Assembly: GCA_000002445.1 (NCBI GenBank)
Contig: CP000070.1
Span: 1,536,001 to 1,600,000 of the forward strand
From: Trypanosoma brucei
Lineage: Eukaryota
Direction: 5' to 3'
DNA: 64,000 bases
A program made the position numbers and the translations under genes. The notes beneath the pieces were generated by a model. That model worked only from the letters and a program-made list of their open reading frames with translations, had not been told where the DNA came from and ran no database searches. This document shows positions 20,268-48,960 of this stretch, piece after piece (position 1 is the first letter of the stretch; every line of letters starts with the position of its first letter).

Positions 20268-21662
20268 ATGTCCACGCGGAAAGAGCCACCGAAGGTTCTT
20301 AAAGGCGCCGCCTATACGGAGTGCAGTCCCATATCTGATGTTTCTCATCACAAGGCTTCCGCAAGCAAGGCATTTCTGGAAAATCATTACCGTGGGATGT
20401 TGCGTGACACCCGAAGTGGAAACACCGCGCGCCCCGTTGGCCCTCGCCCGAGGGAACCATGTGTGGACGACTTTGTGCTCGTCAAACGCATCGGGAAGGG
20501 TGCTTTTGGTGAGGTGTACCTTTGCTATAAAAAATATGACAACGACAAACAGTTATATGCACTAAAGCGAATGCGCAAGACGGATATGATACGCAAGAAG
20601 CAGATTTCGCACGTTCGTTCGGAGAAGGATGTGATGGCCGAAGCGGCGTCCACAAATCCGTGGGTGGTGAAACTGTACCTCAGTTTCCAGGATGAACAAT
20701 ACTTATATATGGTGATGGAGTACATGCCAGGTGGTGATATGATCTCATGGTTGTGCATCAAACAGCGGTTTGACGTAGAGAGCACACGGTTTTATATTGC
20801 TGAGCTGTGCGCTGCGGTTGCAAGTGTTCATGACATGTTCTTCGTTCATCGTGATATCAAACCCGATAACATTCTTTTGGACGCCAAAGGGCACATCAAG
20901 CTAACTGACTTCGGGCTTTCCAAGCGTTTCGCAAAGGTAGGAGAGGAACTTCTTGACTTAGAGGAGGGCAACGACGCCTTGTGTAGTAGCAATAGCAGTG
21001 CAAACCTGTCAAATACCTGCGGTTCCACCTGCCAAGGGCCAAATTCCGTACCAGTCGTATCCCCCCACAACCCCCACTCACCCACTGCAAACTACAATAG
21101 TTTGACACCTGCCGGGTCTCATGCCTCCGCACATCCCCAGGCTCGTCGCATCTTTGAATCTATTGTTGGTAGTCCGGGTTACATCGCACCAGAGATTCTT
21201 CTGCGACAGCGATATGGTGTGAACTGTGATTGGTGGTCTGTTGGTGTTATCATGTATGAAATGCTTTACGGGATCCCACCCTTCTTTTCCAGTGACACGA
21301 GCTCCACCTGTCACAAAATAACACACTGGCGGGAGTACCTCACTTATCCATCAGATCGTGGCGTCCCACCGGAGGCGACAGATCTTTTGCGTCGCCTCAT
21401 GTGTGATCAGCGGGATCGTCTTGACTTTCAGGGCGTGAAGGAACATCCTTTCTTTAATGATATTGATTGGGAGCGATTGCGAGAGACTCCTCCGGCATTT
21501 GTTCCTGAATTATCAGACCCACTCGACACGCATTATTTCCCTGAAGTAGAAGATAATACACCGCAGCAACATCATCAGCGACCGGAGGAACGCAACGCCG
21601 TCAGGGAAGTGGATCCGCGGGGCGTGATATTTGCAGACTACAAATTCAACCTCAAACGGTAA
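20268..21662 (+). CDS. PK53: NDR/LATS-family AGC Ser/Thr protein kinase, 464 aa; probably the T. brucei NDR kinase PK53
   Basis: Kinase subdomains are clear: IGKGAFGEVYL (Gly loop), YALKRMRK (VAIK-type Lys), HRDIKPDNILLD (catalytic loop), DFGLSK, SIVGSPGYIAPE and DWWSVGVIMYEML. An insert of about 80 aa sits between DFG and APE, which is characteristic of NDR/LATS kinases. There is an N-terminal regulatory extension before the kinase domain. The symbol comes from my recollection of the chromosome 7 gene order and is not verified. Confidence 0.85.
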   Translation: MSTRKEPPKVLKGAAYTECSPISDVSHHKASASKAFLENHYRGMLRDTRSGNTARPVGPRPREPCVDDFVLVKRIGKGAFGEVYLCYKKYDNDKQLYALKRMRKTDMIRKKQISHVRSEKDVMAEAASTNPWVVKLYLSFQDEQYLYMVMEYMPGGDMISWLCIKQRFDVESTRFYIAELCAAVASVHDMFFVHRDIKPDNILLDAKGHIKLTDFGLSKRFAKVGEELLDLEEGNDALCSSNSSANLSNTCGSTCQGPNSVPVVSPHNPHSPTANYNSLTPAGSHASAHPQARRIFESIVGSPGYIAPEILLRQRYGVNCDWWSVGVIMYEMLYGIPPFFSSDTSSTCHKITHWREYLTYPSDRGVPPEATDLLRRLMCDQRDRLDFQGVKEHPFFNDIDWERLRETPPAFVPELSDPLDTHYFPEVEDNTPQQHHQRPEERNAVREVDPRGVIFADYKFNLKR

Positions 21663-21777
21663 CTGCTGTTTTTTTTTTAAGAAAAAGAAAGATAAGAAAA
21701 AAGAGAGGAAATAAATCAAGAGAAAAGTACAACGGCCCACGCTGCGCGTACATTTCGCATATGCATATGAAAGATGC

Positions 21778-21823
<46 letters not shown>

Positions 21824-24631
21824 TACATCTGCTCATGGGCGTGATCACAGTAAAATGGGGGCAAAAATGTTAAAAGATGAATTAGAAACGAACCTTGTGA
21901 TACATGTTTATGATATTCATCATCATCTCCTTCTTCCCAGTGTGCGAAATCGATACTCCTTCGCGTTCCCTGTTTCATTTCTCCTCGTCACTCCCTTTTG
22001 ATTTTTTTTCGATTGTTTGTTTTTTGTTTGCTCTTTTTTTTTCCTTTTTGATGCGGTATGCACACACACACACACACGTACAAATGCTTGTAAATAAACT
22101 GAAAAAGAGAGAGAGATTTCATTTTTTTTTGTTTTATTATATCCTCTTCTTATTTCTCTTCCTTTTCTTTTTTCGCATTAAAGTCGTTGACAATATTATA
22201 ATGTGGCGGCAGAATGATGGCGATATTTAAATTGGTGAGAAGAAGCAGAAGGAAGTTGAGGTTGAGGTCATGTGGTACCGTTTCGATGTTCTCATTACTG
22301 TTTCTCTTATTTTTCCTTTTGCTTTTGTTTCAGCTTTAACTTCTTTTCGTTTTTGTTTTTGCATTTTAGTTTTCACGGGGATTTGGTTCGTTACAGCGTG
22401 TGTGAAAGGGGAGTGGGGGAAGTTGGAGGAGAAGCAATGCAGAGGAAAAAAAAAACTGAGAAGAGAGAAGAGAAACTGTTATTTGTGTTTTTTTTCCCAT
22501 CAACTGATCTCGTCTTATTTTTTTTAAATATTTTCCGTTGGTTTTTTTTGTTTTGTTTTTATTGAGGGAGGGAGCGAGAGAAGAGGGAAGTGCGGCGTTT
22601 GGGTACTTGCGTGTAGAGTTTTAGTGTGGTATAACCGAAGGGAGGGGGAAGGGAGAAGAAAAATCACAGTGGAACTTTTTTAGTGACGGAGAGCATTTTT
22701 CCAGGTATAAATATATATTAAAATATATTGAAATATATTTTTTTTAAAATATATATATAATAAATCAAATGTCCTCCTTTTAGTTTATTGATTTCCCCCC
22801 CCCTCCCTCTTCTGCATTACATTACACTACACTACGCTGCGCTGTCTCGCTTCATTTCCTTTGATGTGTTGTGTTGTGTTATGTTTTTTTTTAATCTTAT
22901 TAGTTTTTGTTTTTGTTACTTTAAACACCGATAAAAATATGTTTGGTGTTGGATGATGAGCTGCAAGAAGAGAGAGAGAGTAGCGATTACCGCCACCTCA
23001 ATTTTCTCCCTTGCGTAATGTATTAGAGACATAAGTTCATGGACTTTTATATTTTGTTACGTGTAAATAGGTTTCGCTTTATGTGTTGGTTTTTTTTTGT
23101 TTTTCTTGCTTTTTTTCTTTTTTTCTTTTTTTTCCCCTCTTGATTTGCATGTCCCATGTGATATGGCGGGAAGGGAAGGGTAGCAACGTTATTAAATTAA
23201 AATAAGTGAACAAATGAATGTATAAGCGGAGAGTAAAAGCAAAAAAGAGAAAAAAAAGAAAAATAGTAATGAGTACAAAAGAGATGCAGGGAAAAGAAAC
23301 AGGGGCGGATGATAATAATAATAATAATAAAGGTTGTTTTAATGTTGTGGGTGTGTTGTTACTGTTGTTTCACTTTCCTTTTCTGTATTTTCCTTTCAGA
23401 GATTCTCCCCTTCAACCCGTCGCTCATTCAGTTATGATTCGCGGTTTGGTTTTAGCGCGTGTGTTTATTTTCATCACATCTGAATGTTTCTCTTTTTTTT
23501 CCTTTTCTTTTTCCTTTTCTTTTTTTTGTGCTGATTAGCTGTTGCTGACGCGGTTGATGAAAGATACGAGGTTTCGTTGGGTTTTTTTTGTGATCCGGTT
23601 TCAAAGCGGGGTCTTTACAGTGTTTAAAGGCTGTTGTTTTATTGTCTTCAGTCTCTTCTTTTCAACCAAAACAAAAAAAAGAAATTATATTTGGAAAATG
23701 AAAGGAAAGAAAAGGAAGAAAGAAATTATTTGATGATGGTGTAATAACAATTACAGTAATAATAAATCGAAAGTAAAGGAACCTCCCTTCTTTTTCGTAT
23801 TGTTGTTGTTGTCGTCGTTGTTTCTTGCTGTTGTTCCCTTCCAATTTCCTTTTTTTTTTTTGTTTTCTATTTGTTCTTTTTTTTAAAAAAAAAAAAAGAA
23901 AAAAAACTTGTGCTCTACTCTCAGAATGTCCAGTTACTTGTCCCTTCACCCCCACTTTTCTCTATTTTAAACCGGGGGGATTCTCATCGGCGTCTATTTC
24001 TTATTGTTGTTGTTGTTATTGTTGGTGTTTGTTTGTTTGTTTTTTCTTGTTTCTTCCTCCCTCTTTTACTGATAGGCGTTCCATTATTACATCACTTCTA
24101 CTTTGTTTCATTATTAAAACGACGCAACATGAAGTAACAAAAAGTTAAGTTGAGAAAAATTTGGTGCTTATTATCATTATTATTATTATTATTTTCCTGT
24201 TCATGTCTCTCAAAATACAATATGAACTTGCAACACTTTTTTTTTAATTTATTTCTCTCTTCTTTCTTTTTGTTGTTTTTGTTTGTTTGTTTGTTTGTTT
24301 TTGGTGGCGGTGGTGGGGCGGGATTGTGACTCGCCGAAAGACTTGTCACAAATTCCAAAAACAATTCGGAAGCTTTAGGTTTTTGTGCAATAGTTACATA
24401 ACCGCAAAACACTCAGCCATTTATTTATTTATTTCTTGTATTGAAAGTTGTATCATCATTGGTAGACGAGACGAGTTGAGTGTTATTACAATTAAGGACC
24501 GTAAAGAAAAAAAAAAGAAGAAAATAAATTTCAAAAGCAACACTTGGCGAGAAGAAGCATTTAAACCTTAGGAAATTTTATACCTTCGGACGAATCTTTT
24601 TTTTTAAATAAAAAAGAAGAAAACAGAGAAT
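21663..24631. other. About 3 kb ORF-free, U-rich low-complexity intergenic region, probably long UTRs
   Basis: Only short Phe/Leu/Ser-rich frames from T/CT-rich DNA occur here. There are long oligo-T, (TA)n, (TG)n, (CA)n and GTTT repeats. Its composition is unlike the coding regions on either side. Confidence 0.6.
21777..21823. repeat. Compound (TA)12(TG)11 microsatellite
   Basis: Seen directly. Confidence 0.95.
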
Positions 24632-25087
24632 ATGATATCACTACATTTGTCCTCGCACTCACTAATGCATGTGCTACTTTCATTCCTGCTGTTATGTTCT
24701 GGAGTTGTTATGGGATATTATGCAGATGTGGATTATGAAGTGCCATCACGTGTTGTGCAGCTCACTGATGCGACATTTGACACAATTGTGATGGATCCCA
24801 CAAAAGATGTATTTGTTTTGTATTGCGTGACGTGGTCCCGTCATTGCCGCTCTGCTGTAAAATTATGGGCGGATCTTTCCATAAGTCAATTTAAACGACC
24901 CACCGCTGATACATTTGTGGCTGCATTAATTGACGCGGAGGCATTTCCCGAAACGGCGAAGCGTATGGGCGTAAAAAGTTACCCAACAATGTTATTTTAT
25001 ACCCGTTTAGAAAAGGCAACACCACTGGAGTATAATGGACAGGGCCTCCTTCCATTACTGGACAGTTTTGTCTTTCAAAACTCATAA
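24632..25087 (+). CDS. Secretory thioredoxin-fold (PDI-like) protein with non-canonical W-S-R-H-C active-site motif, 151 aa
   Basis: ATG at 24632. The N-terminus [26 protein letters not shown] is signal-peptide-like. The thioredoxin-fold order is present: the [16 protein letters not shown] active-site region, then AEAFPE...[11 protein letters not shown] (cis-Pro loop). The first Cys of the CxxC is replaced by Ser. It is paralogous to the next gene. Confidence 0.6.
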
Positions 25088-26539
25088 AATTGTAAGAGGG
25101 GATGGAGGAGGAAAAGAGTTACCATTTGAAATCAATGAATCAGTTAAAGTTAGCGAAGGTAAGAGAAGGACTGTGAAGAATTTCAAAAAAACACACACAC
25201 ACATAACTATAAATAAATAAAATAATAATAATAATAAGCTTTACGGAAGTACCGAGTGAGCATCGTAAGTTGAGGAAACCGTAAAACACTCCTACGTAAT
25301 CAAACTCTTATATATATATATATATATGTGGGTGGGTCCGTCCGTTTTTCATAGTGTGTACCGTATGAGTGCCCTTTTTGTGTTTAGTTGATCAATTTTT
25401 TTATTTTTTATTTTGATTCCATGCAAAACTGTATGCGGAGCAATTTCATCGTTAAAATATTCACCACGGAGCAAACAAACGGATTTATACTTATGTACAT
25501 GTTAGTGTTCTTAATTCGTATTTGTATTACGTGCTTCACCGTGTTTATTTCTTTATTTCTTTATTTCTTTATTTCTTTTACTCTTTTGGGGCGGCATTCA
25601 ACACTTCTTCCTTTCTTATGTTCCTTTAACTCCTTTCCGAATATTAACGTCTGAAAGTGTGGAAGTGGAAGGAGGGACAATGACATCAAAAATACATGAA
25701 AATAAACAATATATTTATATTTATTTACAAGTGGGGAAGCGTCTATTGCGAAGGGGAAAAAATAAATAAATAAAATAAATTGCTTCATTTGAAGCAACGG
25801 GGGGGGGAAAAAAACGATAAAAATGTGTTAGTGCCGTCACCCGGACGGTTTCACTATTTTTTTTTGTTATGTGCTTCTGTTTCGGTAATAATGAGTTGTA
25901 TATTTTATTTTAAATTTTATTCTTGCAAAGAGAAGGAAGGTTTTCAAAATAACAGATAAAATATTTAAATTTATTTGTTTCATGTTTGCTTATTTGTGTT
26001 TTCCTCTCGTAAAGTTGAAGCTTTTGTGTCCTCACTGGCTTGAGGCGCTTCAACGCAAAGTATTAGTCATTTTTTTTACCCCCCTCTTTCATTGTTAAGT
26101 TGCTTAGGTTTCTTTTTTTTTTTTGTATATATATATATATATATATACATTTCAGAAAATTGTAAGTTACGTTGAGTCTTCACTTAAACTATTTCTTTTT
26201 CTTCCTTTCCTTTCCTTTCCTTTTGCGGATATTTTTCCACTTGTATTTTATATTGGTGGTTATTGTATGTGAAATCAAAAGTGAAGTTTATCAATCAGCT
26301 ACACTACACAGAAAATATCAACAGCAACATTCAAACAGGCTAAAAGGGCAGAAAGAAAATAAAAAAGGCATTACTTGAAAAAGTTCTAAATACAGAAAAA
26401 AGAAAAGGGTAATAATAATAATAATAGTAATAGTAATAATAATAGTAATACTATTACAACTAATAGTAACAATAACATCCACAAGAGCCCGATTTTTATT
26501 TGAAGGGAAGGCAAAAAACAAAAACAAAAACAAAAAAAG

Positions 26540-26947
26540 ATGAGGAACTCATTTGCACTTCTGCTTTTATCTGTTGCCATCGCTTTTGTTACTGTTGGCT
26601 CATTTGCTGATGAGGCGAAGGATTCCGTGGAGTTAACTCCTGATAATTTTGATAAGGTGGCGTTGGATACGGAGAAACATGTGTTTGTAATGTTTTATGC
26701 GCCATGGTGTGGACATTGCAAACGTCTTAAACCCAAATGGGAGGAACTCGCTAAAGAAATGAAAGATGAGACATCGGTGGTTATTGCTCGATTGGATGCT
26801 GACAAGCACCGCAATGTGGCGGAGCGTTTTGATGTTCGCGGGTACCCGACACTTCTGCTTTTTGCTCGAAGTAAAAAAGAAGGCCTCCGCTACGAAGGAG
26901 CCCGTGATGTGGCAGCACTGAAGGAATTTGTTAAAAGCAACATGTGA
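26540..26947 (+). CDS. Single-domain protein disulfide isomerase / thioredoxin with signal peptide and canonical WCGHC active site, 135 aa
   Basis: ATG at 26540. MRNSFALLLLSVAIAFVTVGSFA is signal-peptide-like. FVMFYAPWCGHCKRLKP is the PDI a-domain active site. GYPTLLLF is the cis-Pro loop. This fits the small bloodstream-form PDI described in T. brucei (recollection, not verified). Confidence 0.8.
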   Translation: MRNSFALLLLSVAIAFVTVGSFADEAKDSVELTPDNFDKVALDTEKHVFVMFYAPWCGHCKRLKPKWEELAKEMKDETSVVIARLDADKHRNVAERFDVRGYPTLLLFARSKKEGLRYEGARDVAALKEFVKSNM

Positions 26948-28370
26948 TGAAAATGAGCCTCATGATTTTTGATAGATAGGAGGCAAGTCTTATTTTATTT
27001 ATTTATTTATTTTCTTTCCTTGTTATTATTACTATCATTATTATTATTATTACTATTACTATTACTATTAAAGGAAACAGAAATAAAAAAGGAGTGAAAT
27101 AGAAAAAAAAAAAGGCGTAAGAAGATGAAGAGGATGAAGGGGGCAAGGGGAGGTTTTGAGGGGGGGAGGAAATAAACAAATAAATAAATTAAGGCGAATT
27201 TGAGATGAAAATGGTGGAATATGGAGGGTTATGCGTCCGCGAATGGGTGAATATGAGCAAATGAGGCAAAAGAAAAGAAAAGAAACAGATGGATAAATAA
27301 ATGAAAGAGGTAGATTCCTTTTTTTTAATATATATATATATATATATGTATGTTGTGTTTCCCTCTTTTTTTCAGTGTTTATGTTCTTTTTTTTTTTTTC
27401 CTTCGCTGTTGTGTTTGCTTCGGTGATTGGTTTTATTTTTCGTTTTGTTTTTGTTTTTATTTTTATTTTATACCACACACTCATACAACTTTTTTTTTTG
27501 TTTTTGCCGTTCATTCGTTTCTTTGTTCCCTTTTTTTTTTTTTGGTACTTCTCCGTTTGGTTGCGTGTGGGTGTGTGTGTGGGGGGGGGGGGCGTCTCAT
27601 TTATATTTTATTTTTTAGTTTCATGCGCTTTTTTTTCTTTTTTTTTTCATTATTATTTCGCCATTTTGCATTTGCTTTCGTTTTTTTTTTATGTTTTGCT
27701 TCTCATTTTTTTGTTTATGTTTTTTATTAATTTTTTTTTATGAAAGGAAGGAAAGTGAGGGGGGATGTAAACAGAAACAAGTAATGCATATGGTAAAAGT
27801 AATGAAATTAAGAGGGAAAAAAAATAAATAAATAACGGAAGGAGCAAAAAAAAAAAGAGGGGAGGATGAAACAATGATGACATGAATGAGAAGAGTGATT
27901 ATGTGGGAAAATAAGAATCAAAAACGAAAAAAAAATTTTAAGAAAAAAAAAGAAGGTGAAAAGAAAAAGGACTAAATTGAATTGAACTGAATTGGATGGA
28001 AGGGTGGAGTTTAATATTGTTTTCACGCAAACGTGCTGGAAAACCTCATCTAAAAGGGAAGCTTCCAAACCTAATATATAAATATATATAAAGAAAGAGG
28101 CGAAAAGTCAAAATGGTGTGTGTTCGGAAGAGGAAAAAGAAAAAAAAACAGAATTAAAAAATTGCGTTTTTGCCGCCCATCCGTCTCCTTTTATATCCCC
28201 TCTTTTTATTTTTCCTCTTCCTCATATTCCTCACTTCGTTTGCCAAATTGCGAGAATTTTTTTTTTGAAAAAAAAAAGAAAGAGAATGAGTGCGGTAATT
28301 TATATATTTCATCATGATTCTCTCGTAACATGATGTTGATATTGATTCCTATAATTAGGGTATGTCGGCA

Positions 28371-28404
<34 letters not shown>

Positions 28405-28802
28405 CTATGTATAAATATATTCTTATTTCTTCTTATTCCCCTTATTATCACCATTGTTATTATTACAACATATGATCTCACAAACGTAGTGAAGTGTGGC
28501 AGCGGGGGGAGCACCAACTTAAAAGAAAAAAACAAAAAAGGGAAGAAAAAAAACAGCAACAACAACAGCATTAGTACGGAAGGACAGCAAATTTCTTATT
28601 ATTTTTTTTTAAAAAAAGGGACAAGAATAGGTGACCATCATACCAAAAGTATATACGCGAAGGGAAACATTTAAGGGGAGAGCAGAAAACCACGCAAACA
28701 AGTAAATTAAAAAATAAAACAGACAAACAAACAAACAAAAAAAGAAAACGACAAGAAAAGTTGTGGTAAAAAACAAAAAAAACAAGAAGTAAAGAGGAGG
28801 AA

Positions 28803-29315
28803 ATGGCATATAGCGACTATAACAAACAGGAAGCATCGACGGAAACATCTCATAACGATTATTATGAACAATGTTATGGAGATGCGGCATTTGATTATCA
28901 TGAAGAAGTTGGTGAGGCGATAGCGGAGGAGATTCGAATTAATATGGGTCGCCGTAATGTTAAGGCATATGTAGTTCATAATGATGATCAATATAATGTC
29001 TATCGCACCCAACCGGAACGTTCACACATGCGAAGTACCATTTGTATGGATCATCACATTCAAGCTCGTGAGGAGAGCGCCTTGCCAGCAGTTAATCATC
29101 GCTTAGCGACAGATGTTTTGGGACGTGGGGCCCATCGCAGCTTAATTTGTCGTCCATTGGACCGTCACGGCTTCCAAACAGCAGTTTCCTCTCCAACATG
29201 TCTCATATTACCAAATATCGGCGCATGCAACCGAAGCCCGACATATCCACAAAATTATCAACATAACGGAAGGGACAACTTCATGCTTCCAGTCATTACA
29301 ATGCGAAAAAGATGA
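28803..29315 (+). CDS. Doubtful hypothetical protein, 170 aa
   Basis: ATG-initiated ORF on the coding strand with normal, non-repetitive, His/Tyr/Asn-rich composition. It is flanked by low-complexity DNA. The sequence just upstream is A-rich, not pyrimidine-rich. The nearest poly-pyrimidine tract is about 550 nt upstream. Confidence 0.3.
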   Translation: MAYSDYNKQEASTETSHNDYYEQCYGDAAFDYHEEVGEAIAEEIRINMGRRNVKAYVVHNDDQYNVYRTQPERSHMRSTICMDHHIQAREESALPAVNHRLATDVLGRGAHRSLICRPLDRHGFQTAVSSPTCLILPNIGACNRSPTYPQNYQHNGRDNFMLPVITMRKR

Positions 29316-29508
29316 TGCATAATGATGGAAGAATAGTAGACAAAAAATAATAGTATACCTCATATATATATATATATATATATTTATTTATATTTATATA
29401 TTTTTATATATTAATAAGGGAGTTTCATTATTTATTGTTGTTTTATTTGTTATTGTTGTTGTTGTTTTATGCGGAGGTGGAGGAAGGGAAATTTTTCCAT
29501 TTAATAAA

Positions 29509-29531
29509 ACACACACACACACACACACACA
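29509..29531. repeat. (AC)11 microsatellite
   Basis: Seen directly. Confidence 0.95.
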
Positions 29532-32500
29532 AAGGAAATGGGAATAAAACAAATCAAAACAAACAAACAAATTGGTTGTGGATGCAGCGATCAGTGAGTT
29601 GGTTTGTGGAATATATGGAAATGTGTAAGGAGAGGAATCCAAGGGAAATTTATAAACTCGTATAAATCGCATGTGTCCGCTTATTTATATATTTATGAAC
29701 TCGTATTTATATTTGTGTTTTTATTCCTCTCTTTTTTAAACAGAACTTCCACATCTGCTCGTAACTTCTCGGGAAAAAATCTAAAAAAAAAAGTAAAAAA
29801 AGTAGAAGGGGCTCTTTTGTTTTTTTTTGTTTGACTTAACACCTTCTGTTCCTCACTACCTTTATTTTTGTTTGATCAGTTTTTGACGGAGTAAAAAAAA
29901 AAAGAAAAAGAAAACAAATGGAAGAAATTTTTTTCGTGTTCACGTTCGTTAAATAGTTTGTTATGTGTGTGTGTGTGTGTGTTGATGTTGTGTTTTCCAT
30001 CTAACTTCCATCTTGCGCTCCAAAATCAATTTTTATTATTATCATGCTGCAATCAAAAGAAAGAAAAAGAGGAGGAAATGCTTTTGTTTTGTTGTAATTA
30101 TCATAATTATTACCATTATTATCAGTATTTTTCGTTGTTGCTGTTGCCAGAAGTTGGTTGTGGATTTGTTGTTACGTTATTATTTGATTTAACGTAAAAA
30201 AAAAAAAATCCCGCTTACACAAACACACAAAATATACGGGTGTTTAATCTCCTCATTTTTTTTTCTGAGGGAGTTGTTTTTGCACAACCCCTCTTTTACG
30301 CTTCCACCGTATTAAAAAAAGAAAAAGAAAAAATTAAAGTTGAAGTTAATGCTAAAGTTGAAAAGGAGCCAATTGTTATTATATTTAAAAAATACATATT
30401 ACTAGTATTATTATTATTATTAAAAGCAGGAAGTCACACACGTGTTTTATTGCGTGGGGAAAGTCATGAAGGAAGATAGGACGGTGTGTTTGTGTGTGTG
30501 TTTTTTTTTGGGGGGGGGGAGGGAGAAGGGTGTATTTTAGACATGTGCATTTGTGATTTATATATAAACGAATTAATAGGCAAGAACTACTGACAACTCA
30601 AAATAAATTGAAGAATAATTAAGTATAAATAATATATATATATATGTTTATATTTCTTAATATTTGGGTAGTGGCAATACACACGCCTTAAAGGAATAAA
30701 GCAGAAAACAAAAAAAAGACATTTAACTCCACCTTTTTTTTCTTTTTTCTTTTTTCTTTTCCTTTCTTCCTTCTCTCTCTTTCGCTCCGTGATGGCCTAC
30801 TCTCCCCGTAATTTGTGTATGTGCCTCTATAATAAATAAATGCAAATATATTTCCATTATTTCTGTTTCTCTCCACGCGTATGTTTGGCTATTTCATAAA
30901 CTTCATACCTTTCTCTCTTAATTATCAGCAGGGCGCAACCTTCAGGATTGGTTTCGTTGTATGTTTTTTTTTTGTTATGTGGTTTTCCTTTTCATAACTT
31001 TGTTGTACATGTTGTAGATGAGATGCAAATGTGATTGAAGGATGTGAAGAAACACAGCGTTTGAACACACTTTCAAGTTTCTTTGTAATTCCATTTCCAT
31101 TCTGCTTTTTAATAATTATTGTTATTCTAATAATTACTATTATTATCATTATCTGTGTATGTGTTTTTGCATGTTTTTTGTTCGGGCATTTTCATACGGT
31201 TTCTTTTCTTTTTTTTTTCTGATTTTAATTTATATATTTTTGATCCCCTTTTCTATACCGCTGATCTTTACGAGTGTCATCAGCGCCGCTGCATTGTTTT
31301 TTCCTATGCTTTTTCCTTTGTCAATGTGACCTTACGAATATAATAATAATAACAATATTAAAAATAATGATAAATTAAGTACATAACTTTGTTGTCACTT
31401 CTCTCGTTTTGCCTCTCCCCTCCCCTTTTGCGCTTCATTACCATGTTGCGTCAGTTTAATTTATTATATCATTTCTTTTTCGTTTTGCTTAATTTTTATT
31501 ATGAAAAAAGGAAAAATTTTCCTGATTTTGTAATGGCTTCTCCTCCCCTCTCTTCTTTTAACATCCGTCCAATCAATGCGAGGGGGAAAAAAGTATAAGC
31601 AAATATATAATGTATGCTTGTACACGAAAGGAAAAGAAAACACAATACCGCAGTTTTCAACATAATCCTCCACTTGTCTACATAAAACACAAGCACACAC
31701 GTGCCGTTTCTCTCTATTTCTTTTTTTTCTTATTTATTTATATTATATTTTGTATCTTTATTGTACCCGAACCTTTACTTATTTCTGGCTTTAACTCATT
31801 TGTTTCATTATTCCTTTCTGTTTCTTTCTATCTTTCTTTTTTCCCCCTTTCAACTCCTCCTCCTACTCCTCCTGTTCTTCTTCATTTTCACCTTTATTTA
31901 TCTATACCAAAACGGAGGCGGTTAATCAACTTTTTTTACACGTTTCATGTCATAAATATTTTTTAAAATATATATATATTTATTTTTGGGAGGGTGCAAC
32001 TGCAGATGTTTTCCTCTTTTTTTGCTGTTTCCATTACACTTCACCATCACCTCCCTTTTTCCCACATCTTCTTTAAGTTATTGCCTTCACTTTTACCCTA
32101 CACCCCGATGTTTTGGTTGTTGTTTAAAAAAAAAATTAAAGTGTCTCCAAAAATAAAAAAAATTGTATTTCTCTTCTTCACTTCTCCTCTTTTTTTTCTT
32201 TTTAAAATTACGCGCTTCTATTCTCACTGTCTGCTCGTCATTTTACCTTTTGCCCTGTTGTTCCCTCATTCATTATTATTATTACTGTTACTATTGCCAT
32301 AAGGCCCCAAAAAAAAATTGTGAGAGTAATTAACAAAAGGGGTAGTGGGAAACCTGCATTAGTGCCGAAGTCGTGTTATTATTTTTTTTTTAATTGAAAA
32401 AAAAAGAGTAGCAAACAAGCAAAACAAATATTTGTATCATATATATATATATTATTTATTTACATATAAGGGATAGAAAGAAGTAATTGCTTGGCTGGGG

Positions 32501-32710
32501 TTTGTGCTCCTTGAAGAAATTCATACAGCCACCATTTTCAAAGAGCCATAAAGTATTCCTTTACAAGCTAATAGAAATACCATAGAACGAGAAAGGAGGA
32601 AAAAAAGAAACACGCGAGATAAACTTTAGTTGCACGGTGTCAAATACAAGTGGCAAAAAGGGAAAAGAGAAAAAGAAAAAAGAAAATAGGCAGATATTTT
32701 TATTAAACAA

Positions 32711-34258: not shown

Positions 34259-35029
34259 ATGTTGGCGCTTCGTGCTGCCCTTGAGGCCAATAGCGGTCAG
34301 TTGTGTGGTGACAGTATTGTGCGAGCCTTATGCCAACTGACGGTACGTGACCTTGGGCAATACATATCGGCAGTACCTCCTTTTCCGCAGGAGGGCGGTA
34401 GTTCCACCGCACCATCATCTGTTGTGACCGCCTTTTCCCTTCACGACCTCCTTCATTTCCCCGGCCCCACGATTTGGAACAGTAGTTCCTTGGGTAAACG
34501 TCGTGTTGGTTGCGCTACCCTTTACGAAACGGATAGCGTTCACGTTAGTTGGTTTCTCATGTCCCCTGGAAGCATGTTGCCACTTCATGATCACTGTTTA
34601 ATGGTTGTTTGGCAGCGCATGCTGTTCGGTAGTATTCGTGTTACGTCAATGGACTGGAGGGAAAAACCTCTAAGTGCCGAAGACGCCATACGGAAGCAGC
34701 GTGAAGGTGGTGAAGCGGCTATTGTTTCTTCTTCTGTTGTTACTGCGCAGCGTGAACCCTGCGACCCTTCTTCAGTGACGTCTTTCGGGCCAACAGAGGG
34801 CGGTGTGCTGCATGAAATAGTGAATGAAAGTGACGGACCTGCACTTTTCTTGGACGTCATAGCACCTCCGTATCATAGCCCGCCAGATTTTTTCGACTGC
34901 GGCTACTATAAGGCATCCTTTAGCCACAGCGAAGTTGCCGGGGGGGTTGCTCACTTGACGCCGTGTGCTTATGATTGTCCACCAATGGTCGAGTTTTTTC
35001 CGTTAGAGTCCCTGCGGCACGGAGCATAA
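34259..35029 (+). CDS. Thiol dioxygenase of the ADO/PCO family (2-aminoethanethiol dioxygenase / plant cysteine oxidase-like cupin), about 256 aa
   Basis: Track ORF 34175 starts at TTG; the first ATG is at 34259. The core motif HVSWFLMSPGSMLPLHDHCLMVVWQRMLFGSIRVTSMDW lines up residue by residue with the human ADO segment IGIFLLKPGASIPLHDHPGMHGMLKVLYGTVRISCMD. The C-terminal GPALFLDVIAPPYHSPPDFFDCGYYK matches the ADO GPAAFLDILAPPYDPDDGRDCHYYR. The metal-binding His residues (HDH plus a downstream LHE) are conserved. Confidence 0.8.
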   Translation: MLALRAALEANSGQLCGDSIVRALCQLTVRDLGQYISAVPPFPQEGGSSTAPSSVVTAFSLHDLLHFPGPTIWNSSSLGKRRVGCATLYETDSVHVSWFLMSPGSMLPLHDHCLMVVWQRMLFGSIRVTSMDWREKPLSAEDAIRKQREGGEAAIVSSSVVTAQREPCDPSSVTSFGPTEGGVLHEIVNESDGPALFLDVIAPPYHSPPDFFDCGYYKASFSHSEVAGGVAHLTPCAYDCPPMVEFFPLESLRHGA

Positions 35030-35528: not shown

Positions 35529-37076
35529 ATGAATGGTCGTACACGGGTATTGTTTACTGCCGGGGTGCCAACACCTCCCAACTGTGCGCACAACGTTGTT
35601 ATTTCCGGTGGAGGAATTGTAGGAGCCGCCGCAATGGCTGCACTTCAGAAACTCAGAGCGCGTTTTCTCGCAGAAAGTGTCGGAGCTGAAGGTTCCGTTT
35701 CACATAATGTGCACTCGAGGTGTTTGTCTCGACTCCTCCTTGCGGATCCCATGGCACGACCGCATTACGACGCGGCGAATATCATGCATAACCTACGCAC
35801 TGTCAGTCTCACACCGGTATCGAGCAAGTTGTTGGATAACCTCGGCTCCTGGAAACGATTGCAAACGAAGCATGCCTATTATCGTATTGCCCTTCGGCAC
35901 GAGCGCACGAATGGGCCAGTCGCTCCGGACCAATCCTCACAAGAGAAGTCCAGAAATTTTTTTGTGAATGGCCCTTTGGGTAACGGCACATCCACGGCGG
36001 AGCCGCTGCTCGAGTTCACGAACTTAGACAGCCCACTTGGGTTCATTTGTTACAATTCAGACATTAACACCACACTGCTGGATGTTGTCGAGGAACAAAT
36101 GAAACAATATCAACAACCTTTGGGAAGTGACGGGTGTGGAGTTCAGGAGCAACCCACCGATTGCATTGAATTCGGCTCATCCTTGGGATCATATTCGCTT
36201 CCTCATCGTAATATCGTCGATGGTCCTGCAGGTCGGGCAATTCTGCGGAAGTCAGTGGGTGATCAGCCGGTTGAGTTTTCGCTGCTACTTGGCTGTGAAG
36301 GGCGTGGCGGTCACCTGCGCGAATCTCTCGGTTCAGCACTGGTGCAGCACGACTACGCGCAAACCGCCTTTGTTTGTACAGTTCAGTTGAAGCGGCCCGC
36401 GGATGGCAACGTTTGTTGCTTTCAAAACTTCTTCACGAATGGTGACATCATTGCGTTGTTACCAACGTCTGAAGACACTTCTAATATTGTCTTCTCCACA
36501 ACGGCCGAGCATGCCCGCGAGCTAGCCGCTGCGAAGCAATCGGAACTTGTAGAAGAACTTAACCGATGCCTTCATGCATTTGCCCCACGCGACATCCCGC
36601 TTATCATCAGTGTCCCGGAAGTTGAACTGGGCGGCAAGACAGTACGCGCGCAGGGAATGTTTCCGGTAAGACTCAGCGTTGCTCTTCAACCCTTCGGCCC
36701 CCGTTGCCTTCTCCTCGGTGATGCCGCGCATGGGATTCATCCTTTTGCCGGACAAGGATTAAATTTGGGACTCTACGATGTCTGCGCACTGGTGGAAGTG
36801 CTGGAACGGGCGGTAAGAAGTGGCCAAGATATTGGTAGTGTCATCGCCGTGGGGCAACCATTTGCCGCTGCAATGATGTCCCACACTGGGATCATGATTA
36901 CGGCAATGGAGAGTGTATTTGGGCTTCTCGCCACAATGCCTGGTTTGAGTTGTACTGGGATGAGTGTGTTGCAGAAGCTGCCACTGGTATCGTCATTGGG
37001 TAAACAATCTATCATTCATGTGGCATCAGGTGGCTTTTTCGCATCGCACCACCGGGAGTCATTTCTCCTTGCATAA
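35529..37076 (+). CDS. COQ6: FAD-dependent aromatic hydroxylase of the UbiH/UbiF/COQ6 family (ubiquinone biosynthesis monooxygenase), 515 aa
   Basis: The N-terminal Rossmann FAD motif VVISGGGIVGAAAMAALQ is present. The C-terminal FAD/substrate motif LLGDAAHGIHPFAGQGLNLGLYDVCALVEVL is typical of the UbiH/COQ6 clade. Length and domain order fit. The N-terminal extension could be a mitochondrial presequence. Confidence 0.75.
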   Translation: MNGRTRVLFTAGVPTPPNCAHNVVISGGGIVGAAAMAALQKLRARFLAESVGAEGSVSHNVHSRCLSRLLLADPMARPHYDAANIMHNLRTVSLTPVSSKLLDNLGSWKRLQTKHAYYRIALRHERTNGPVAPDQSSQEKSRNFFVNGPLGNGTSTAEPLLEFTNLDSPLGFICYNSDINTTLLDVVEEQMKQYQQPLGSDGCGVQEQPTDCIEFGSSLGSYSLPHRNIVDGPAGRAILRKSVGDQPVEFSLLLGCEGRGGHLRESLGSALVQHDYAQTAFVCTVQLKRPADGNVCCFQNFFTNGDIIALLPTSEDTSNIVFSTTAEHARELAAAKQSELVEELNRCLHAFAPRDIPLIISVPEVELGGKTVRAQGMFPVRLSVALQPFGPRCLLLGDAAHGIHPFAGQGLNLGLYDVCALVEVLERAVRSGQDIGSVIAVGQPFAAAMMSHTGIMITAMESVFGLLATMPGLSCTGMSVLQKLPLVSSLGKQSIIHVASGGFFASHHRESFLLA

Positions 37077-45147: not shown

Positions 45148-46407
45148 ATGCAGCCTGTGCTGGTTGCCAACAGTGAAGATGCCCTGTCATGGATTTTAAT
45201 CGATAGCAGGGGCCATGGGTTGGCGAAGAGCCACCTTCCCATACGTGGCAACGTCACTGCAATTACCGAAGGATTTGAGGTCATTACTCTCCTGTTCTGG
45301 ACCATCTTTTTCTTCAGTTGTTTACTATGTTTGAGCGTACCTCTTTTTTACGGGACGCTTTCCGGGGTAATCCACCACTGTAACGTTGGCTTTCAGTTAC
45401 TTTCTGCTCTCACAACGAGTAATGAGCAACACTCAAATCAAAAAGGAGGTGTAAAGAAGGACAGGTTTAATATCACTACAGCTGGTAATGGCAATAACAG
45501 AAATGGCCATGTGCACCAACGGAGTAGTCGCGCTGCAACCACTCCGCATGATCACAATGTAAAACACCTTGCCGTTATTATGGACGGAAACCGAAGGTAC
45601 GGGCAGAGGCATTCTGTTGAAACCGTATGTGTGAAAGAGTTAGAAGATGTGTGTGAGTTTATCTTCAATGAAGATATGCCGTTGTTTGGTGTAGAACCAA
45701 TTTTCAAGCGACTGGCGTTTCTCCTCAAACGCACCAAGTTGGATGGGCATCGTGTGGGAGGTGAGAAATTGCTAGAGTTCGTGAAAGATTGCATTGATTT
45801 TAACATCAGTATGCTAACTGTGTATGCCTTCTCTACGGAGAACTGGTCTAGACCTGCGCTAGAGGTCAAGGTGCTCATGACGTTGTTTTACTGTTATTTT
45901 GAGCGCATGCGCCAAACGGCAAGAAAACAGGGGATTTTCATACGCTTCATATCACCTGCGTTTGAAATGATCCCTTCCCGTATTCGACGTATTATGGTGG
46001 ATATTGAAGAAGAAACACGACGGCATGTGCCGAGGCGTATTGTAGTTAACGTGTGTGTCAGCTACAGTGGGCGGGATGAGATCATCAACGCCTGCAACGG
46101 CCTCTTGCAGAAGAGGAGCGAATATTCCCCGATTTCAACCGGGGACTTGATGAGTCAAATGCTTCGTAGCGTAACGCAGGCTGATCACGAGGAGGAAGAT
46201 GCTTCTGTTCTGTTCGATGGCGGAGGTGCAGAGCCACAAATTCTACTACGAACTAGTGGAGAGCAGAGACTCAGCAACTTCCTATTGTTTGAATGTGCCT
46301 ACACAGAGTTCCTCTTCGTTGACAAAACCTGGCCCGAGATAAATAGAGAGGACCTTGTTAAACTCTTACAAGATCATGATAAGCGTGACAAACGCTACGG
46401 CAAATAA
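45148..46407 (+). CDS. cis-Prenyltransferase (dehydrodolichyl diphosphate synthase / UPP-synthase family) with an N-terminal hydrophobic extension, 419 aa
   Basis: Family signatures are present: HLAVIMDGNRRYG (substrate-binding P-loop), LTVYAFSTENWSRP, and C-terminal RLSNFLL...YTEFLFVDKTWPE (the RxG/dimer region of cis-IPTases). An N-terminal transmembrane-like segment (LLFWTIFFFSCLLCLSVPLFYG) precedes the catalytic domain. Confidence 0.8.
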   Translation: MQPVLVANSEDALSWILIDSRGHGLAKSHLPIRGNVTAITEGFEVITLLFWTIFFFSCLLCLSVPLFYGTLSGVIHHCNVGFQLLSALTTSNEQHSNQKGGVKKDRFNITTAGNGNNRNGHVHQRSSRAATTPHDHNVKHLAVIMDGNRRYGQRHSVETVCVKELEDVCEFIFNEDMPLFGVEPIFKRLAFLLKRTKLDGHRVGGEKLLEFVKDCIDFNISMLTVYAFSTENWSRPALEVKVLMTLFYCYFERMRQTARKQGIFIRFISPAFEMIPSRIRRIMVDIEEETRRHVPRRIVVNVCVSYSGRDEIINACNGLLQKRSEYSPISTGDLMSQMLRSVTQADHEEEDASVLFDGGGAEPQILLRTSGEQRLSNFLLFECAYTEFLFVDKTWPEINREDLVKLLQDHDKRDKRYGK

Positions 46408-46959
46408 CGTTGCCCTCCCCCCCCCCCCATCCGTTTAACATTGGATTACACTGTTAATATTTTTGTGACTTGTGTGGGTGACGTAAGTAGCGGTGATGCT
46501 CTCTTTTTCAATTTCGTCTGATCTCCAGCGCGTAAACTCGTCAGTTGACAAAGTGATAGCGGGAAGTTTTAGGTACGTGCAGTGCCAAACTCACGTGAGA
46601 TCCGGCACTGGCACGATCCGTACATTTCGCAGTTTATTCTTGCGTGTGTATGTGCGTGCGGGTATTTCCGATTTGCCAACCCTTGTTTTTTCCTCCCTCT
46701 TGACTCGCACATTTATTAAACCCATGCTATGAGTATATATATATTTATATATTGTCCTGCATGCTTTGTCCTCTGTACAAATGTCCAAGCACTCTTTCCC
46801 CCCTCTACAACTTGTCGTTCCGCCTCATCCACATCTGCATACACTTATCGGCGTGCGGATAGCGGCAGAGGTTGTGTGCGTATCGTTAAATCATTAAGCA
46901 AAACAAAGACAACCAAGAAAAGAGACAAGGCTGTACCCGCTGTTTTCTCGTTAGATTCA

Positions 46960-48960
46960 ATGAATGAGGATAAAAAAGCACCCTTGACCGTTGAAACGGG
47001 GGCTGATTCATCGGAGAAGAAGTCCATTTTTTCAGTTCCGAACGAGACACTCGTTGAGTTTGACGCGAAGAGTGATACTATTCGTGGGGAACTGGTTCAG
47101 GTGATAGCGGCCTGGCTCATTGAGCAAGGTCTGACATCATCTGCGCAGTTGTTATGTGATGAAGCCGCGGCACTCTTCCACCAGGAGCACAGCGAGCGGA
47201 AAACCCTTCGGGACGTCTCTCGGTCCGTGCAGGAAGGCAACTGGGAGGCTGCAAGTAGTAAATTGAAGAAACTTGAACCATTAATAGCACCGGAGGCTGA
47301 TGTGAGTCGTGACTCGTCATCTCAAACTGCATCACTCATTCGATCACTGCCTTTCTTGCTCGCTCAACAGCAATTCTTGGAGTATGTTGACGAAGACGAT
47401 GGGCAACGGGCGCATCATTTCTTTATGAGAAGAATTAAACCACTTGAGGGAACAATCAATAGGGAACATTTCCAGCAGCTAGTTTATTTGCTTACGTGCA
47501 GAAACGTTTCAGAGGCTGGAACGACCTTCCCAGTTTGGCGTGGTTGGACACCAATGAAGGGGCGCCTGCAGCTTCAATCCCTTATTGCGAACATCATTGG
47601 ACACTATAATACGAGTCCGTACTGCCACCAGTATAAGTACCATGTTGATGACGAACCAAACGCCACTGTCATAAACCTGGAACAAATATTAGCGAATTCT
47701 TTATCATATGAACTTTTAAAGTCGCAACATCCCAATCTATTGGCGGGTCTTCCTGTGCACCCCGTGTACTCCATTTGGAGACCCTTGGGTGAGCAGTTGC
47801 TTCCCACAAACCTCGTCATGACGCTGGATGTCAATACATTGTGCCACAGCGCCAAACTTCACACGGGGGAAAACGTACGGCTGACGGCTTGCCAGCCCTT
47901 CCTTCAGGTGCCCGCACTCGCTGTTGGGACGGATGCGGGGGAAATCTTGTGGGTGCCTCTGAAGAACAGAAAAGAAGACACAACACTGGAATCACATGGG
48001 GCGTGTACGTCCTTGTACCGTTACAAGGCTCCCGTGAGAGGAATGACGTACCATGAGCAACAATTGCTTCTCTCATGGAGTGGATGTCAAGCTGTAGTCC
48101 TTAACGTTGTTCAACTAAAGAAGTCAAGAGGCACTGTCCCGGAACAACAGGATTATTTGGCTGACTGTGTTGCGAACACATTTACTCATGCCGCAGAGGT
48201 GCGATCGGCTTGTTTGTTCCCATGCGGTTTTATTCTCGCAACGGGTTTGTCTGACGGAACCGTCACTGAATGGAATCTCATAACAGGGGCACAGATGTCT
48301 CAGCACGCATTTAGCGCCTCATCCATCGAGTCTTTAGCGGTGAATCGCTCAGGTAGTTGTTACTTCGCCGCCTCGCGAGAGGGTCTTGTCCGCGTTGTGG
48401 ATGCTTCCACGGGTGTGCTTCTCTTCACATTCGCGCTGTTGATAACCAGTGAAATATCTTCTATAGCTATTTCCCCTTCCTCCTCACTGCTGCTGGTGTG
48501 CTACAAAACTGGTACGCTTCGACTATGGGATGTGCTGACAGGCAATTCACTTGCTCAGCGACTGGAAGGCATGGAGAGCACAAAATGTCGATGCACCTGC
48601 GTCACGTTTGGTGCCAATGACTCGCATATTATAACGGGACACGACGACGGATGCCTTTATTTCTGGGACACGGGTCGTTCGCGGCTACGGCGGTGCCAAA
48701 CCGCCTCATCTCCGCTATCTTCTGCCTTTGGGAGTCGGGAGGGTGCTCACGGGGAGTCACCAGTGCTTTATTCGCCGAATAATCCAAGCATGCATAACTT
48801 CCCTCCGGGTGAAGCAGTGTCGCCGCAAACGTCTCTTCGACTTCATCGAGCGCAAATAACCGATGTGAAGTTTCAGCACAACTATGTGGTGACGTGTGGG
48901 GGTGACGGTAGGATATGCATATGTGCGAGCGTCATGAAGGACATGGAAAGGAGAGTGTGA
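46960..48960 (+). CDS. LisH-CTLH-WD40 repeat protein (WDR26/Gid7- or SMU1-like), about 666 aa
   Basis: Track ORF 46729 begins in pyrimidine-rich junk; the first plausible ATG is at 46960 (MNEDKK). VQVIAAWLIEQGLTSSAQLLCDEAA is a LisH-like helix pair. A CTLH-like region follows. The C-terminal half has WD-repeat hallmarks: LSDGTVTEWNL, GTLRLWDV and GHDDGCLYFWD. Confidence 0.7.
   Translation: MNEDKKAPLTVETGADSSEKKSIFSVPNETLVEFDAKSDTIRGELVQVIAAWLIEQGLTSSAQLLCDEAAALFHQEHSERKTLRDVSRSVQEGNWEAASSKLKKLEPLIAPEADVSRDSSSQTASLIRSLPFLLAQQQFLEYVDEDDGQRAHHFFMRRIKPLEGTINREHFQQLVYLLTCRNVSEAGTTFPVWRGWTPMKGRLQLQSLIANIIGHYNTSPYCHQYKYHVDDEPNATVINLEQILANSLSYELLKSQHPNLLAGLPVHPVYSIWRPLGEQLLPTNLVMTLDVNTLCHSAKLHTGENVRLTACQPFLQVPALAVGTDAGEILWVPLKNRKEDTTLESHGACTSLYRYKAPVRGMTYHEQQLLLSWSGCQAVVLNVVQLKKSRGTVPEQQDYLADCVANTFTHAAEVRSACLFPCGFILATGLSDGTVTEWNLITGAQMSQHAFSASSIESLAVNRSGSCYFAASREGLVRVVDASTGVLLFTFALLITSEISSIAISPSSSLLLVCYKTGTLRLWDVLTGNSLAQRLEGMESTKCRCTCVTFGANDSHIITGHDDGCLYFWDTGRSRLRRCQTASSPLSSAFGSREGAHGESPVLYSPNNPSMHNFPPGEAVSPQTSLRLHRAQITDVKFQHNYVVTCGGDGRICICASVMKDMERRV

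What the first reader, a model, noticed from the sequence alone, without database searches (positions are those of the whole stretch)
34259..35029. ADO/PCO-type thiol dioxygenase (N-degron Cys-oxidase family) in a kinetoplastid
The protein conserves the diagnostic PLHDH...LFG cupin core and the C-terminal GPAxFLDxxAPPY...DCxYY motif of human 2-aminoethanethiol dioxygenase and plant cysteine oxidases. These enzymes oxidise cysteamine. In animals and plants they also oxidise N-terminal Cys of proteins as an oxygen sensor. What such an enzyme does in trypanosomes is, as far as I know, not characterised. Candidate roles are cysteamine/hypotaurine metabolism or oxygen sensing during host transitions. 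It sits in the same transcription unit as a mercaptopyruvate sulfurtransferase about 18 kb downstream, which may be coincidence.
Basis: partly seen in the sequence, partly recalled or inferred. Interest (0 to 1): 0.55.

Follow-up and report, generated by a model that had tools for sequence, protein, structure and literature searches.

The report
Trypanosome ADO/PCO-type thiol dioxygenase gene
This is an intact, single-copy Trypanosoma brucei gene for an iron-dependent thiol dioxygenase of the human ADO / plant cysteine oxidase family; databases already assign it to that family by homology, but I found no experimental study of it in trypanosomes.

Summary

The window is T. brucei brucei TREU927 chromosome 7. 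The protein is XP_846204.1 / UniProt Q582J6. Its NCBI name is "hypothetical protein, conserved". The UniRef name "Cysteine dioxygenase" is probably wrong in detail. Orthologs occur across Trypanosoma, Leishmania, Angomonas and diplonemids, and many are already named "cysteamine dioxygenase" or "PCO_ADO".

So this is an ordinary, vertically inherited member of a known enzyme family. Its substrate (N-terminal Cys of proteins or cysteamine) and its role (oxygen sensing or sulfur metabolism) cannot be decided from sequence. Ten literature searches found nothing on kinetoplastids. The mercaptopyruvate sulfurtransferase 18 kb downstream is real, but its position says nothing about function. Interest is modest.

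The parts
34259..35029 (+). Complete coding sequence (256 aa plus stop) of the T. brucei PCO/ADO-family thiol dioxygenase (XP_846204.1 / UniProt Q582J6)
   Evidence: ORF and translation. PF07847 E=4.3e-51. Exact identity to the TREU927 protein. Start conserved in orthologs.
34580..34630 (+). First cupin motif, P108-L-H110-D-H112-C...L-F-G124, carrying two of the three metal-binding His (H110 at 34586-34588, H112 at 34592-34594)
   Evidence: Aligned to human ADO H112/H114. His present in 167 of 168 family sequences and G124 in 167 of 168.
34811..34813 (+). Codon of H185, the third metal-binding His (= human ADO H193)
   Evidence: His in 168 of 168 family sequences.
34835..34909 (+). C-terminal signature G193-PALFLDVIAPPYHSPPDFFDCGY-Y217. 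It holds D199 (34853-34855, = ADO D206 / PCO4 D176), Y205 (= ADO Y212), the hairpin loop Y205-C214, and the pair C214 (34898-34900) and Y216 (34904-34906) (= ADO C220/Y222)
   Evidence: Alignment to ADO. Family conservation out of 168: D 163, Y205 168, C214 161, Y216 158. Roles of the ADO/PCO residues from PMC8503633.
34511..34513 (+). Codon of C85, at the position of human ADO Tyr87 and of the carboxylate-binding Arg60 of cysteine dioxygenase. No Arg is present here.
   Evidence: Alignment (query V83-G-C85 against ADO V85-T-Y87). Structural equivalence ADO Y87 = CDO R60 from PMC8503633.
34006..34067 (+). Candidate trans-splicing signals upstream of the ATG: a polypyrimidine run at 34006-34019, with AG dinucleotides at 34025-34026 and 34066-34067. 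This is an inference from the sequence, not a tested feature.
   Evidence: Read directly from the sequence. No transcript data were available.

Best explanation
The ORF encodes the single T. brucei ortholog of the PCO/ADO family of non-heme iron thiol dioxygenases.

Proposed mechanism. The residues are shown; the chemistry is inferred from the family. A cupin barrel holds one Fe(II) on His110, His112 and His185. The substrate is an aminothiol with a free amine and no free carboxylate: either the N-terminal Cys of a protein after initiator-Met removal, or cysteamine. It binds through its thiolate to the iron, next to Asp199 and under the Y205-C214 hairpin loop. O2 binds the iron, and both oxygen atoms are added to the sulfur, giving a sulfinic acid (Cys-sulfinic acid at a protein N-terminus, or hypotaurine).

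Physiological substrate. I favour N-terminal Cys of proteins, at about 0.45. Cysteamine alone is about 0.3, and another aminothiol or a non-catalytic role makes up the rest. The confidence of 0.85 below refers to the enzyme class and chemistry, not to the physiological substrate.
For: PF07847 matches at E=4.3e-51, 173.6 bits against a cut-off of 27.

The closest solved proteins by sequence are PCO4, PCO5, PCO2 and human and mouse ADO, at E about 1e-14. BLASTP against human ADO gives 30% identity over 173 aa, E=9e-20.

Every residue that is near-invariant in 168 family members is present: H110, H112, G124, H185, D199, P203, P204, Y205, C214, Y216.

Features that separate ADO/PCO from carboxylate-binding thiol dioxygenases are present. 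An Asp replaces the His of the Ser-His-Tyr motif, no Arg sits at the CDO Arg60 position (Cys85 instead), and the hairpin loop is present.

Orthologs with the same catalytic residues occur in T. vivax, T. congolense, T. grayi, T. theileri, T. melophagium, Angomonas and Leishmania tarentolae. Orthologs in T. cruzi, T. rangeli and T. conorhini keep them too, except Asn at D199. Related sequences occur in diplonemids. This points to long-term purifying selection.

The preference for N-terminal Cys rests on the open ADO/PCO-type architecture, which was described as a rationale for protein substrates (PMC8503633).
Against: There is no biochemical or genetic evidence for this protein, and none was found in the searched literature.

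The residue after the second His ligand is Cys113, where 153 of 168 family members have Pro. The effect of this is unknown.

The protein diverges quickly: only 48% identity to T. congolense, and a segment of about 22 residues present in other trypanosomatids is missing.

Orthologs in the T. cruzi clade carry Asn at the D199 position. In PCO4, altering that Asp lowered iron occupancy and activity (PMC8503633). Catalysis may therefore not be equally maintained across the genus.

I could not check whether T. brucei has the downstream Arg/N-degron machinery (ATE1, a UBR-type ligase) or suitable Met-Cys proteins.
Confidence: 0.85

Rival explanations
1. It is purely a small-molecule cysteamine dioxygenase. 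It makes hypotaurine from cysteamine (for example from CoA or pantetheine turnover, or taken from the host) and has no protein substrates and no signalling role.
For: Orthologs are named 'cysteamine dioxygenase' in NCBI records. Phe197 matches ADO Phe204 rather than PCO4 Ile174. This is one of the cavity residues suggested to relate to cysteamine use (PMC8503633; alignment).
Against: Those names are transferred by homology and were not tested. Other cavity positions are PCO-like or unique: V117 matches PCO4 Val105 rather than ADO Gly119, and Q119 stands where ADO has Leu121 and PCO4 has Ser107. I found no paper reporting a cysteamine or hypotaurine pathway in T. brucei.
Confidence: 0.3
2. It is a cysteine dioxygenase (CDO type) that oxidises free L-cysteine to cysteine sulfinic acid, as the UniRef name 'Cysteine dioxygenase' implies.
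For: The UniRef cluster name. CDO has the same cupin fold and three-His site, and it is the next-best structural match.
Confidence: 0.03
3. It is a catalytically dead or repurposed cupin (a pseudoenzyme, scaffold or metal-binding protein) that only retains the family fold.
For: Divergence within Trypanosoma is fast, at 39-49% identity. The HDHC motif replaces HDHP. Orthologs in the T. cruzi clade have Asp to Asn at the active-site Asp.
Against: In T. brucei every metal ligand and every near-invariant family residue is intact. These residues are conserved from diplonemids to trypanosomes, which would be hard to explain without catalysis.
Confidence: 0.07
4. It is a chance ORF or pseudogene rather than a functional gene.
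For: None.
Against: Full-length, uninterrupted orthologs lie at a syntenic position, followed by the same FAD-dependent monooxygenase gene, in T. b. gambiense, in a second T. brucei-group assembly (GCA_003543875.1) and in Leishmania tarentolae. The HMM E-value is 4.3e-51.
Confidence: 0.01

Closest known systems
Human/mouse 2-aminoethanethiol (cysteamine) dioxygenase, ADO (PDB 7REI, 7LVZ, 8U9J)
   Different: Only 30% identity over 173 aa. Cys113 replaces Pro115 after the second His. Val117 and Gln119 stand where ADO has Gly119 and Leu121. Cys85 stands where ADO has Tyr87. In the 168-sequence alignment, Cys16 does not align with ADO Cys18. No substrates are known.
Arabidopsis plant cysteine oxidases PCO4/PCO5/PCO2 (PDB 6S0P, 6S7E, 7CHJ, 6SBP, 7CXZ)
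   Different: HDH rather than the plant HNH at the metal motif. Phe197 is ADO-like rather than PCO4 Ile174. PCO targets (ERF-VII factors, VRN2, ZPR2) are plant-specific, so any trypanosome substrates must be different proteins.
Cysteine dioxygenase type I (CDO) and bacterial 3-mercaptopropionate / mercaptosuccinate dioxygenases
   Different: Below the CDO_I Pfam threshold. Lacks the Ser-His-Tyr motif and the substrate-carboxylate Arg. Has the ADO/PCO hairpin loop instead.

Membership tests
PCO_ADO (Pfam PF07847; N-terminal cysteine / cysteamine dioxygenases) | Profile-HMM match above the curated gathering score | tested here: met
   173.6 bits against a cut-off of 27, E=4.3e-51, residues 55-226 on profile positions 1-165 of 201.
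PCO_ADO (Pfam PF07847; N-terminal cysteine / cysteamine dioxygenases) | Three His metal ligands (human ADO H112, H114, H193) | tested here: met
   H110, H112 and H185 align to them. They are invariant in 167-168 of 168 family sequences.
PCO_ADO (Pfam PF07847; N-terminal cysteine / cysteamine dioxygenases) | Active-site Asp in place of the His of the CDO Ser-His-Tyr motif (ADO D206, PCO4 D176) | tested here: met
   D199 sits in FLDVIAPPY. The role of this Asp is taken from PMC8503633.
PCO_ADO (Pfam PF07847; N-terminal cysteine / cysteamine dioxygenases) | No substrate-carboxylate-binding Arg (CDO R60 position; Tyr87 in ADO) | tested here: met
   Cys85 occupies this position.
PCO_ADO (Pfam PF07847; N-terminal cysteine / cysteamine dioxygenases) | Hairpin loop ending in the conserved Cys-x-Tyr pair (ADO Y212-C220, C220/Y222) | tested here: met
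   Y205-HSPPDFFD-C214-G-Y216. Whether a Cys-Tyr cross-link forms cannot be tested here.
PCO_ADO (Pfam PF07847; N-terminal cysteine / cysteamine dioxygenases) | Cupin fold closer to ADO/PCO structures than to other thiol dioxygenases | tested here: met
PCO_ADO (Pfam PF07847; N-terminal cysteine / cysteamine dioxygenases) | Fe(II)- and O2-dependent conversion of an aminothiol to a sulfinic acid | not testable with these tools
   Needs a recombinant enzyme assay.
Cys branch of the Arg/N-degron pathway (enzymatic oxygen sensing) | Met-Cys-initiating substrates, ATE1 arginyltransferase and a UBR-type N-recognin in the same organism; substrate stability that depends on O2 | not tested
The locus collections hold no eukaryotic genomes. 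No paper on N-degron pathways in trypanosomes was found.
Cysteine dioxygenase type I (Pfam PF05995) | Profile-HMM match above the gathering score; Arg60 and the Ser-His-Tyr motif | tested here: not met
   12 bits against a cut-off of 23, E=0.15. Cys85 replaces the Arg and Asp199 replaces the His.

The most novel reading that the evidence does not exclude
Trypanosomatids, and Euglenozoa more widely, use this enzyme as a direct enzymatic oxygen sensor. It oxidises the N-terminal Cys of a set of parasite-specific Met-Cys proteins and so makes their stability depend on O2 through an Arg/N-degron route. This would couple oxygen tension (bloodstream, tissues, tsetse gut) to differentiation or metabolism. 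It would also place the Cys N-degron oxygen-sensing system, so far demonstrated in animals and plants, near the root of eukaryotes.
Probability: 0.15. Interest if true: 0.7.

Novelty: already known. Interest (0 to 1): 0.27.

Why it matters
If the enzyme acts on protein N-termini, trypanosomes would have an oxygen-sensing proteolytic switch of the animal and plant type. No oxygen sensor of this type was found described for these parasites in the searched literature, although they move between very different oxygen environments. The presence of orthologs in diplonemids and kinetoplastids would then argue that the system is ancient.

If it only oxidises cysteamine, it is a minor step in sulfur metabolism.

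In either case the sequence adds nothing beyond a homology assignment that databases already hold. Its value is as a well-defined, single-copy, easily testable candidate. The 'Cysteine dioxygenase' label in UniRef should read ADO/PCO-type.

Tried and rejected
1. CDO identity, as in the UniRef name. Rejected: below the Pfam threshold, no Arg60 or Ser-His-Tyr equivalents, and lower structural similarity.

2. A functional link to the 3-mercaptopyruvate sulfurtransferase at 52516..53640. The gene is real, but it lies 18 kb away with about nine ORFs of 200 aa or more in between, in a polycistronic unit. By general knowledge, kinetoplastid gene order does not reflect function. The conserved neighbour is the FAD monooxygenase immediately downstream, also present in L. 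tarentolae. I did not check whether the sulfurtransferase is syntenic in Leishmania, because flanks were limited to 10 kb.

3. Reading the N-terminus MLALRAAL... as a mitochondrial presequence. Not favoured. Residues 2-9 and 17-26 are confident helices in the model. The segment is conserved in orthologs and resembles the N-terminal helix of animal ADO-like sequences. Localisation was not tested.

4. dN/dS between T. b. brucei and T. b. gambiense. There are only four codon differences, two synonymous and two not (F211Y, S224G), which is uninformative.

5. Met-Cys ORFs in the window as candidate substrates. There is only one ATG-start ORF of 150 aa or more beginning MC (ATG at 4221, inside the 4167..5438 ORF). 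It is not informative without the whole proteome.

6. Literature. Ten searches, the whole quota, found nothing on ADO/PCO, N-degron pathways or hypotaurine synthesis in kinetoplastids. Two phylogenetic or review papers on PCOs do not mention kinetoplastids or related protist terms. Masson et al. 2019 could not be opened under the PMC id I recalled.

7. Rfam and tRNA scans of the window found nothing.

8. An exact-product contig look-up for the window protein found nothing. The cluster look-up did identify it.

Full report
**The observation**

Window 34259..35029 on the + strand is an uninterrupted ORF of 256 codons ending in TAA. An in-frame stop lies at 34169-34171, and 34259 is the first in-frame ATG after it. 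The encoded N-terminus MLAL... is shared by orthologs from T. congolense, T. theileri and T. conorhini, so the coordinates and the start are right.

**Source of the window**

The protein is identical to T. brucei brucei TREU927 XP_846204.1 / AAZ12645.1 / UniProt Q582J6, on a contig of 2,205,233 bases. NCBI names it "hypothetical protein, conserved" and UniRef names it "Cysteine dioxygenase". It differs at two residues (F211Y, S224G) from the T. b. gambiense DAL972 protein, which is encoded on record FN554970.1. I recognise that record as chromosome 7 from my own knowledge of the accession series. All ORFs of 200 aa or more lie on the + strand, apart from one that overlaps the sulfurtransferase ORF. 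This is the usual picture of a kinetoplastid polycistronic unit.

**Family assignment by sequence**

- Pfam PCO_ADO (PF07847) matches at E=4.3e-51, 173.6 bits against a curated cut-off of 27. CDO_I reaches only 12 bits against its cut-off of 23.
- Against all PDB sequences, the only significant hits are plant cysteine oxidases 4, 5 and 2 and human and mouse ADO, at E=7e-15 to 2e-10. Generic cupins follow at E>0.06.
- BLASTP against human ADO gives 30% identity over 173 residues, E=9e-20. One search showed it to be identical to PDB 7REI except for the engineered C18S and C239S changes.

**Residue map**

From:

| T. brucei | Human ADO | Role |
|---|---|---|
| H110, H112, H185 | H112, H114, H193 | Metal ligands |
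| D199 | D206 (PCO4 D176) | Active-site Asp |
| Y205 | Y212 | Start of hairpin loop |
| C214, Y216 | C220, Y222 | Cys/Tyr pair |
| C85 | Y87 (CDO R60 position) | No carboxylate-binding Arg |

In an alignment of 168 family sequences, the three His are present in 167-168, G124 in 167, D199 in 163, Y205 in 168, C214 in 161 and Y216 in 158. The T. brucei protein has the consensus residue at each of these positions.

According to the human ADO structure paper (PMC8503633), four features set ADO and PCO apart from thiol dioxygenases that bind carboxylate substrates:

- an Asp in place of the His of the Ser-His-Tyr motif;
- no Arg at the CDO Arg60 position (Tyr87 in ADO);
- a hairpin loop (ADO residues 212-220);
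- an open cavity.

The T. brucei protein has the first three: Asp199, Cys85 at the Arg60/Tyr87 position, and a 10-residue loop from Y205 to C214. The UniRef label "Cysteine dioxygenase" is therefore probably imprecise.

**Structure**

An AlphaFold2 model built on 23 sequences has mean pLDDT 84.7 and pTM 0.84. Low confidence is confined to residues 42-54 and the last three residues.

- Foldseek agrees: 22 ADO/PCO chains at E=3e-15 to 4e-13, then CDO at about 4e-9.

I could not measure the geometry of the His triad because model coordinates are not exposed.

**Distribution**

- An exhaustive search of 1.84 billion representative proteins found 675 relatives at E of 1e-3 or better.
- Named close relatives come from T. 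vivax, T. congolense, T. cruzi, T. rangeli, T. conorhini, T. grayi, T. theileri, T. melophagium, Angomonas deanei and Leishmania tarentolae. Many are already called "cysteamine dioxygenase", "PCO ADO" or "Cysteine oxygenase/2-aminoethanethiol dioxygenase".
- The next tier includes the diplonemids Diplonema ambulator, Namystynia karyoxenos and Flectonema neradi.
- Only one T. brucei cluster was found, so the gene appears to be single-copy.
- The gene is followed by the same FAD-dependent monooxygenase gene in T. b. gambiense, in a second T. brucei-group assembly and in L. tarentolae.

Together these point to vertical inheritance within Euglenozoa and to long-term constraint on the catalytic residues.

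**Lineage-specific features**

1. The residue after the second His ligand is Cys113 (HDHC). In 153 of 168 family sequences it is Pro. Cys occurs in only 11 sequences, and those identified in the alignments are Trypanosoma. T. grayi and Leishmania have Pro.
2. T. cruzi, T. rangeli and T. conorhini have Asn at the D199 position. Altering the equivalent Asp in PCO4 lowered iron occupancy and activity (PMC8503633).
3. T. brucei lacks a segment of about 22 residues that other trypanosomatids have between the DCxYY motif and the C-terminal strands.
4. The cavity-lining residues are a mosaic. V117 matches PCO4 Val105. F197 matches ADO Phe204. Q119 matches neither ADO Leu121 nor PCO4 Ser107.

Sequence identity to other trypanosomes is only 39-49% by BLASTP, so the protein evolves fairly fast outside the core.

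**Mechanism**

Shown:
- family membership;
- an intact metal site and second-sphere residues;
- the ADO/PCO fold.

Inferred from the family:
- Fe(II) is bound by the three His;
- the thiolate of an aminothiol lacking a free carboxylate binds the iron next to Asp199 and under the hairpin loop;
- O2 is activated, and both oxygen atoms go to sulfur to give a sulfinic acid.

The physiological substrate cannot be read from the sequence. I favour protein N-terminal Cys at about 0.45, because the architecture is the open, hairpin-bearing ADO/PCO type described as suited to protein substrates (PMC8503633). Cysteamine to hypotaurine is about 0.3. The remainder covers other aminothiols or loss of catalysis. 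I could not test whether oxidation feeds an Arg/N-degron pathway in trypanosomes.

**The sulfurtransferase remark**

The gene at 52516..53640 has two rhodanese domains plus DUF1930, the architecture of a 3-mercaptopyruvate sulfurtransferase. It is on the same strand, with no strand switch in between. About nine ORFs of 200 aa or more separate the two genes. By general knowledge, kinetoplastid polycistrons do not group genes by function.

**Literature**

Ten full-text searches and several targeted readings found no study of an ADO/PCO homolog, of N-degron pathways or of hypotaurine synthesis in kinetoplastids. The library omits most subscription journals and supplementary tables of genome-wide screens. 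"Uncharacterised" therefore means "nothing found", not "proven absent".

**Verdict**

The family assignment is already in public databases: PF07847 is precomputed for this protein, and its orthologs are named accordingly. The enzyme is an ordinary, vertically inherited member of a widespread eukaryotic family. I classify it as already known in kind and give it modest interest (0.27). The interesting possibility is an enzymatic Cys N-degron oxygen sensor in trypanosomes. My evidence does not exclude it, but nothing beyond homology supports it. I put it at about 0.15.

Noticed in passing
window 52516..53640 (+): A 374-aa protein with two rhodanese domains plus a C-terminal DUF1930 domain (E=3e-38). 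A 233-aa ORF on the opposite strand (52417..53118) overlaps it and is presumably spurious.
   Followed up: partly
window 35529..37076 (+); L005 11392..12903: The gene immediately downstream encodes a 515-aa FAD-binding monooxygenase (PF01494, E=1e-11). The PCO_ADO then FAD-monooxygenase gene order is conserved in T. b. gambiense and Leishmania tarentolae.
   Followed up: partly
orthologs P0004 (T. conorhini), P0006 (T. rangeli), P0007 (T. cruzi), alignment A3: These T. cruzi-clade orthologs have Asn where T. brucei has the active-site Asp199 (ADO D206 / PCO4 D176): F-x-N-V-T/M-T-P-P-Y instead of F-L-D-V-I-A-P-P-Y. Only 4 of 168 family sequences have Asn here. Altering this Asp in PCO4 lowered iron occupancy and activity, so these orthologs may differ in activity.
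   Followed up: partly
window 34595..34597 (codon of Cys113): The residue after the second His ligand is Cys (HDHC). It is Pro in 153 of 168 family members. Cys occurs in only 11 sequences; the ones identified in the alignments are Trypanosoma, while T. grayi and Leishmania have Pro. A thiol this close to the metal site could matter for redox regulation or autoxidation.
   Followed up: no
window about 34920..34945 (residues 221-229) compared with orthologs in alignments A1 and A3: T. brucei lacks a segment of about 22 residues that other trypanosomatids carry between the DCxYY motif and the C-terminal strands.
   Followed up: no
window 24632..25087 (+) and 26540..26947 (+): Two small thioredoxin-fold proteins with hydrophobic N-termini. 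Pfam Thioredoxin is recorded for the equal-length genes of T. b. gambiense. The second has a canonical WCGHC motif. The first has a degenerate WSRHC at the same place.
   Followed up: no
window 21700..32700: About 11 kb with only short genes and long intergenic stretches rich in low-complexity sequence, such as TA/CA dinucleotide runs that appear as 'YIYIYI' and 'HTHTHT' in spurious ORFs. No tRNA gene or Rfam family was found anywhere in the window.
   Followed up: partly
window 45148..46407 (+), 20268..21662 (+), 46729..48960 (+), 54223..56013 (+): Other neighbours, seemingly unrelated in function: a cis-prenyltransferase (PF01255, E=6e-56), a Ser/Thr protein kinase, a WD40 protein and an MFS transporter.
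   Followed up: no
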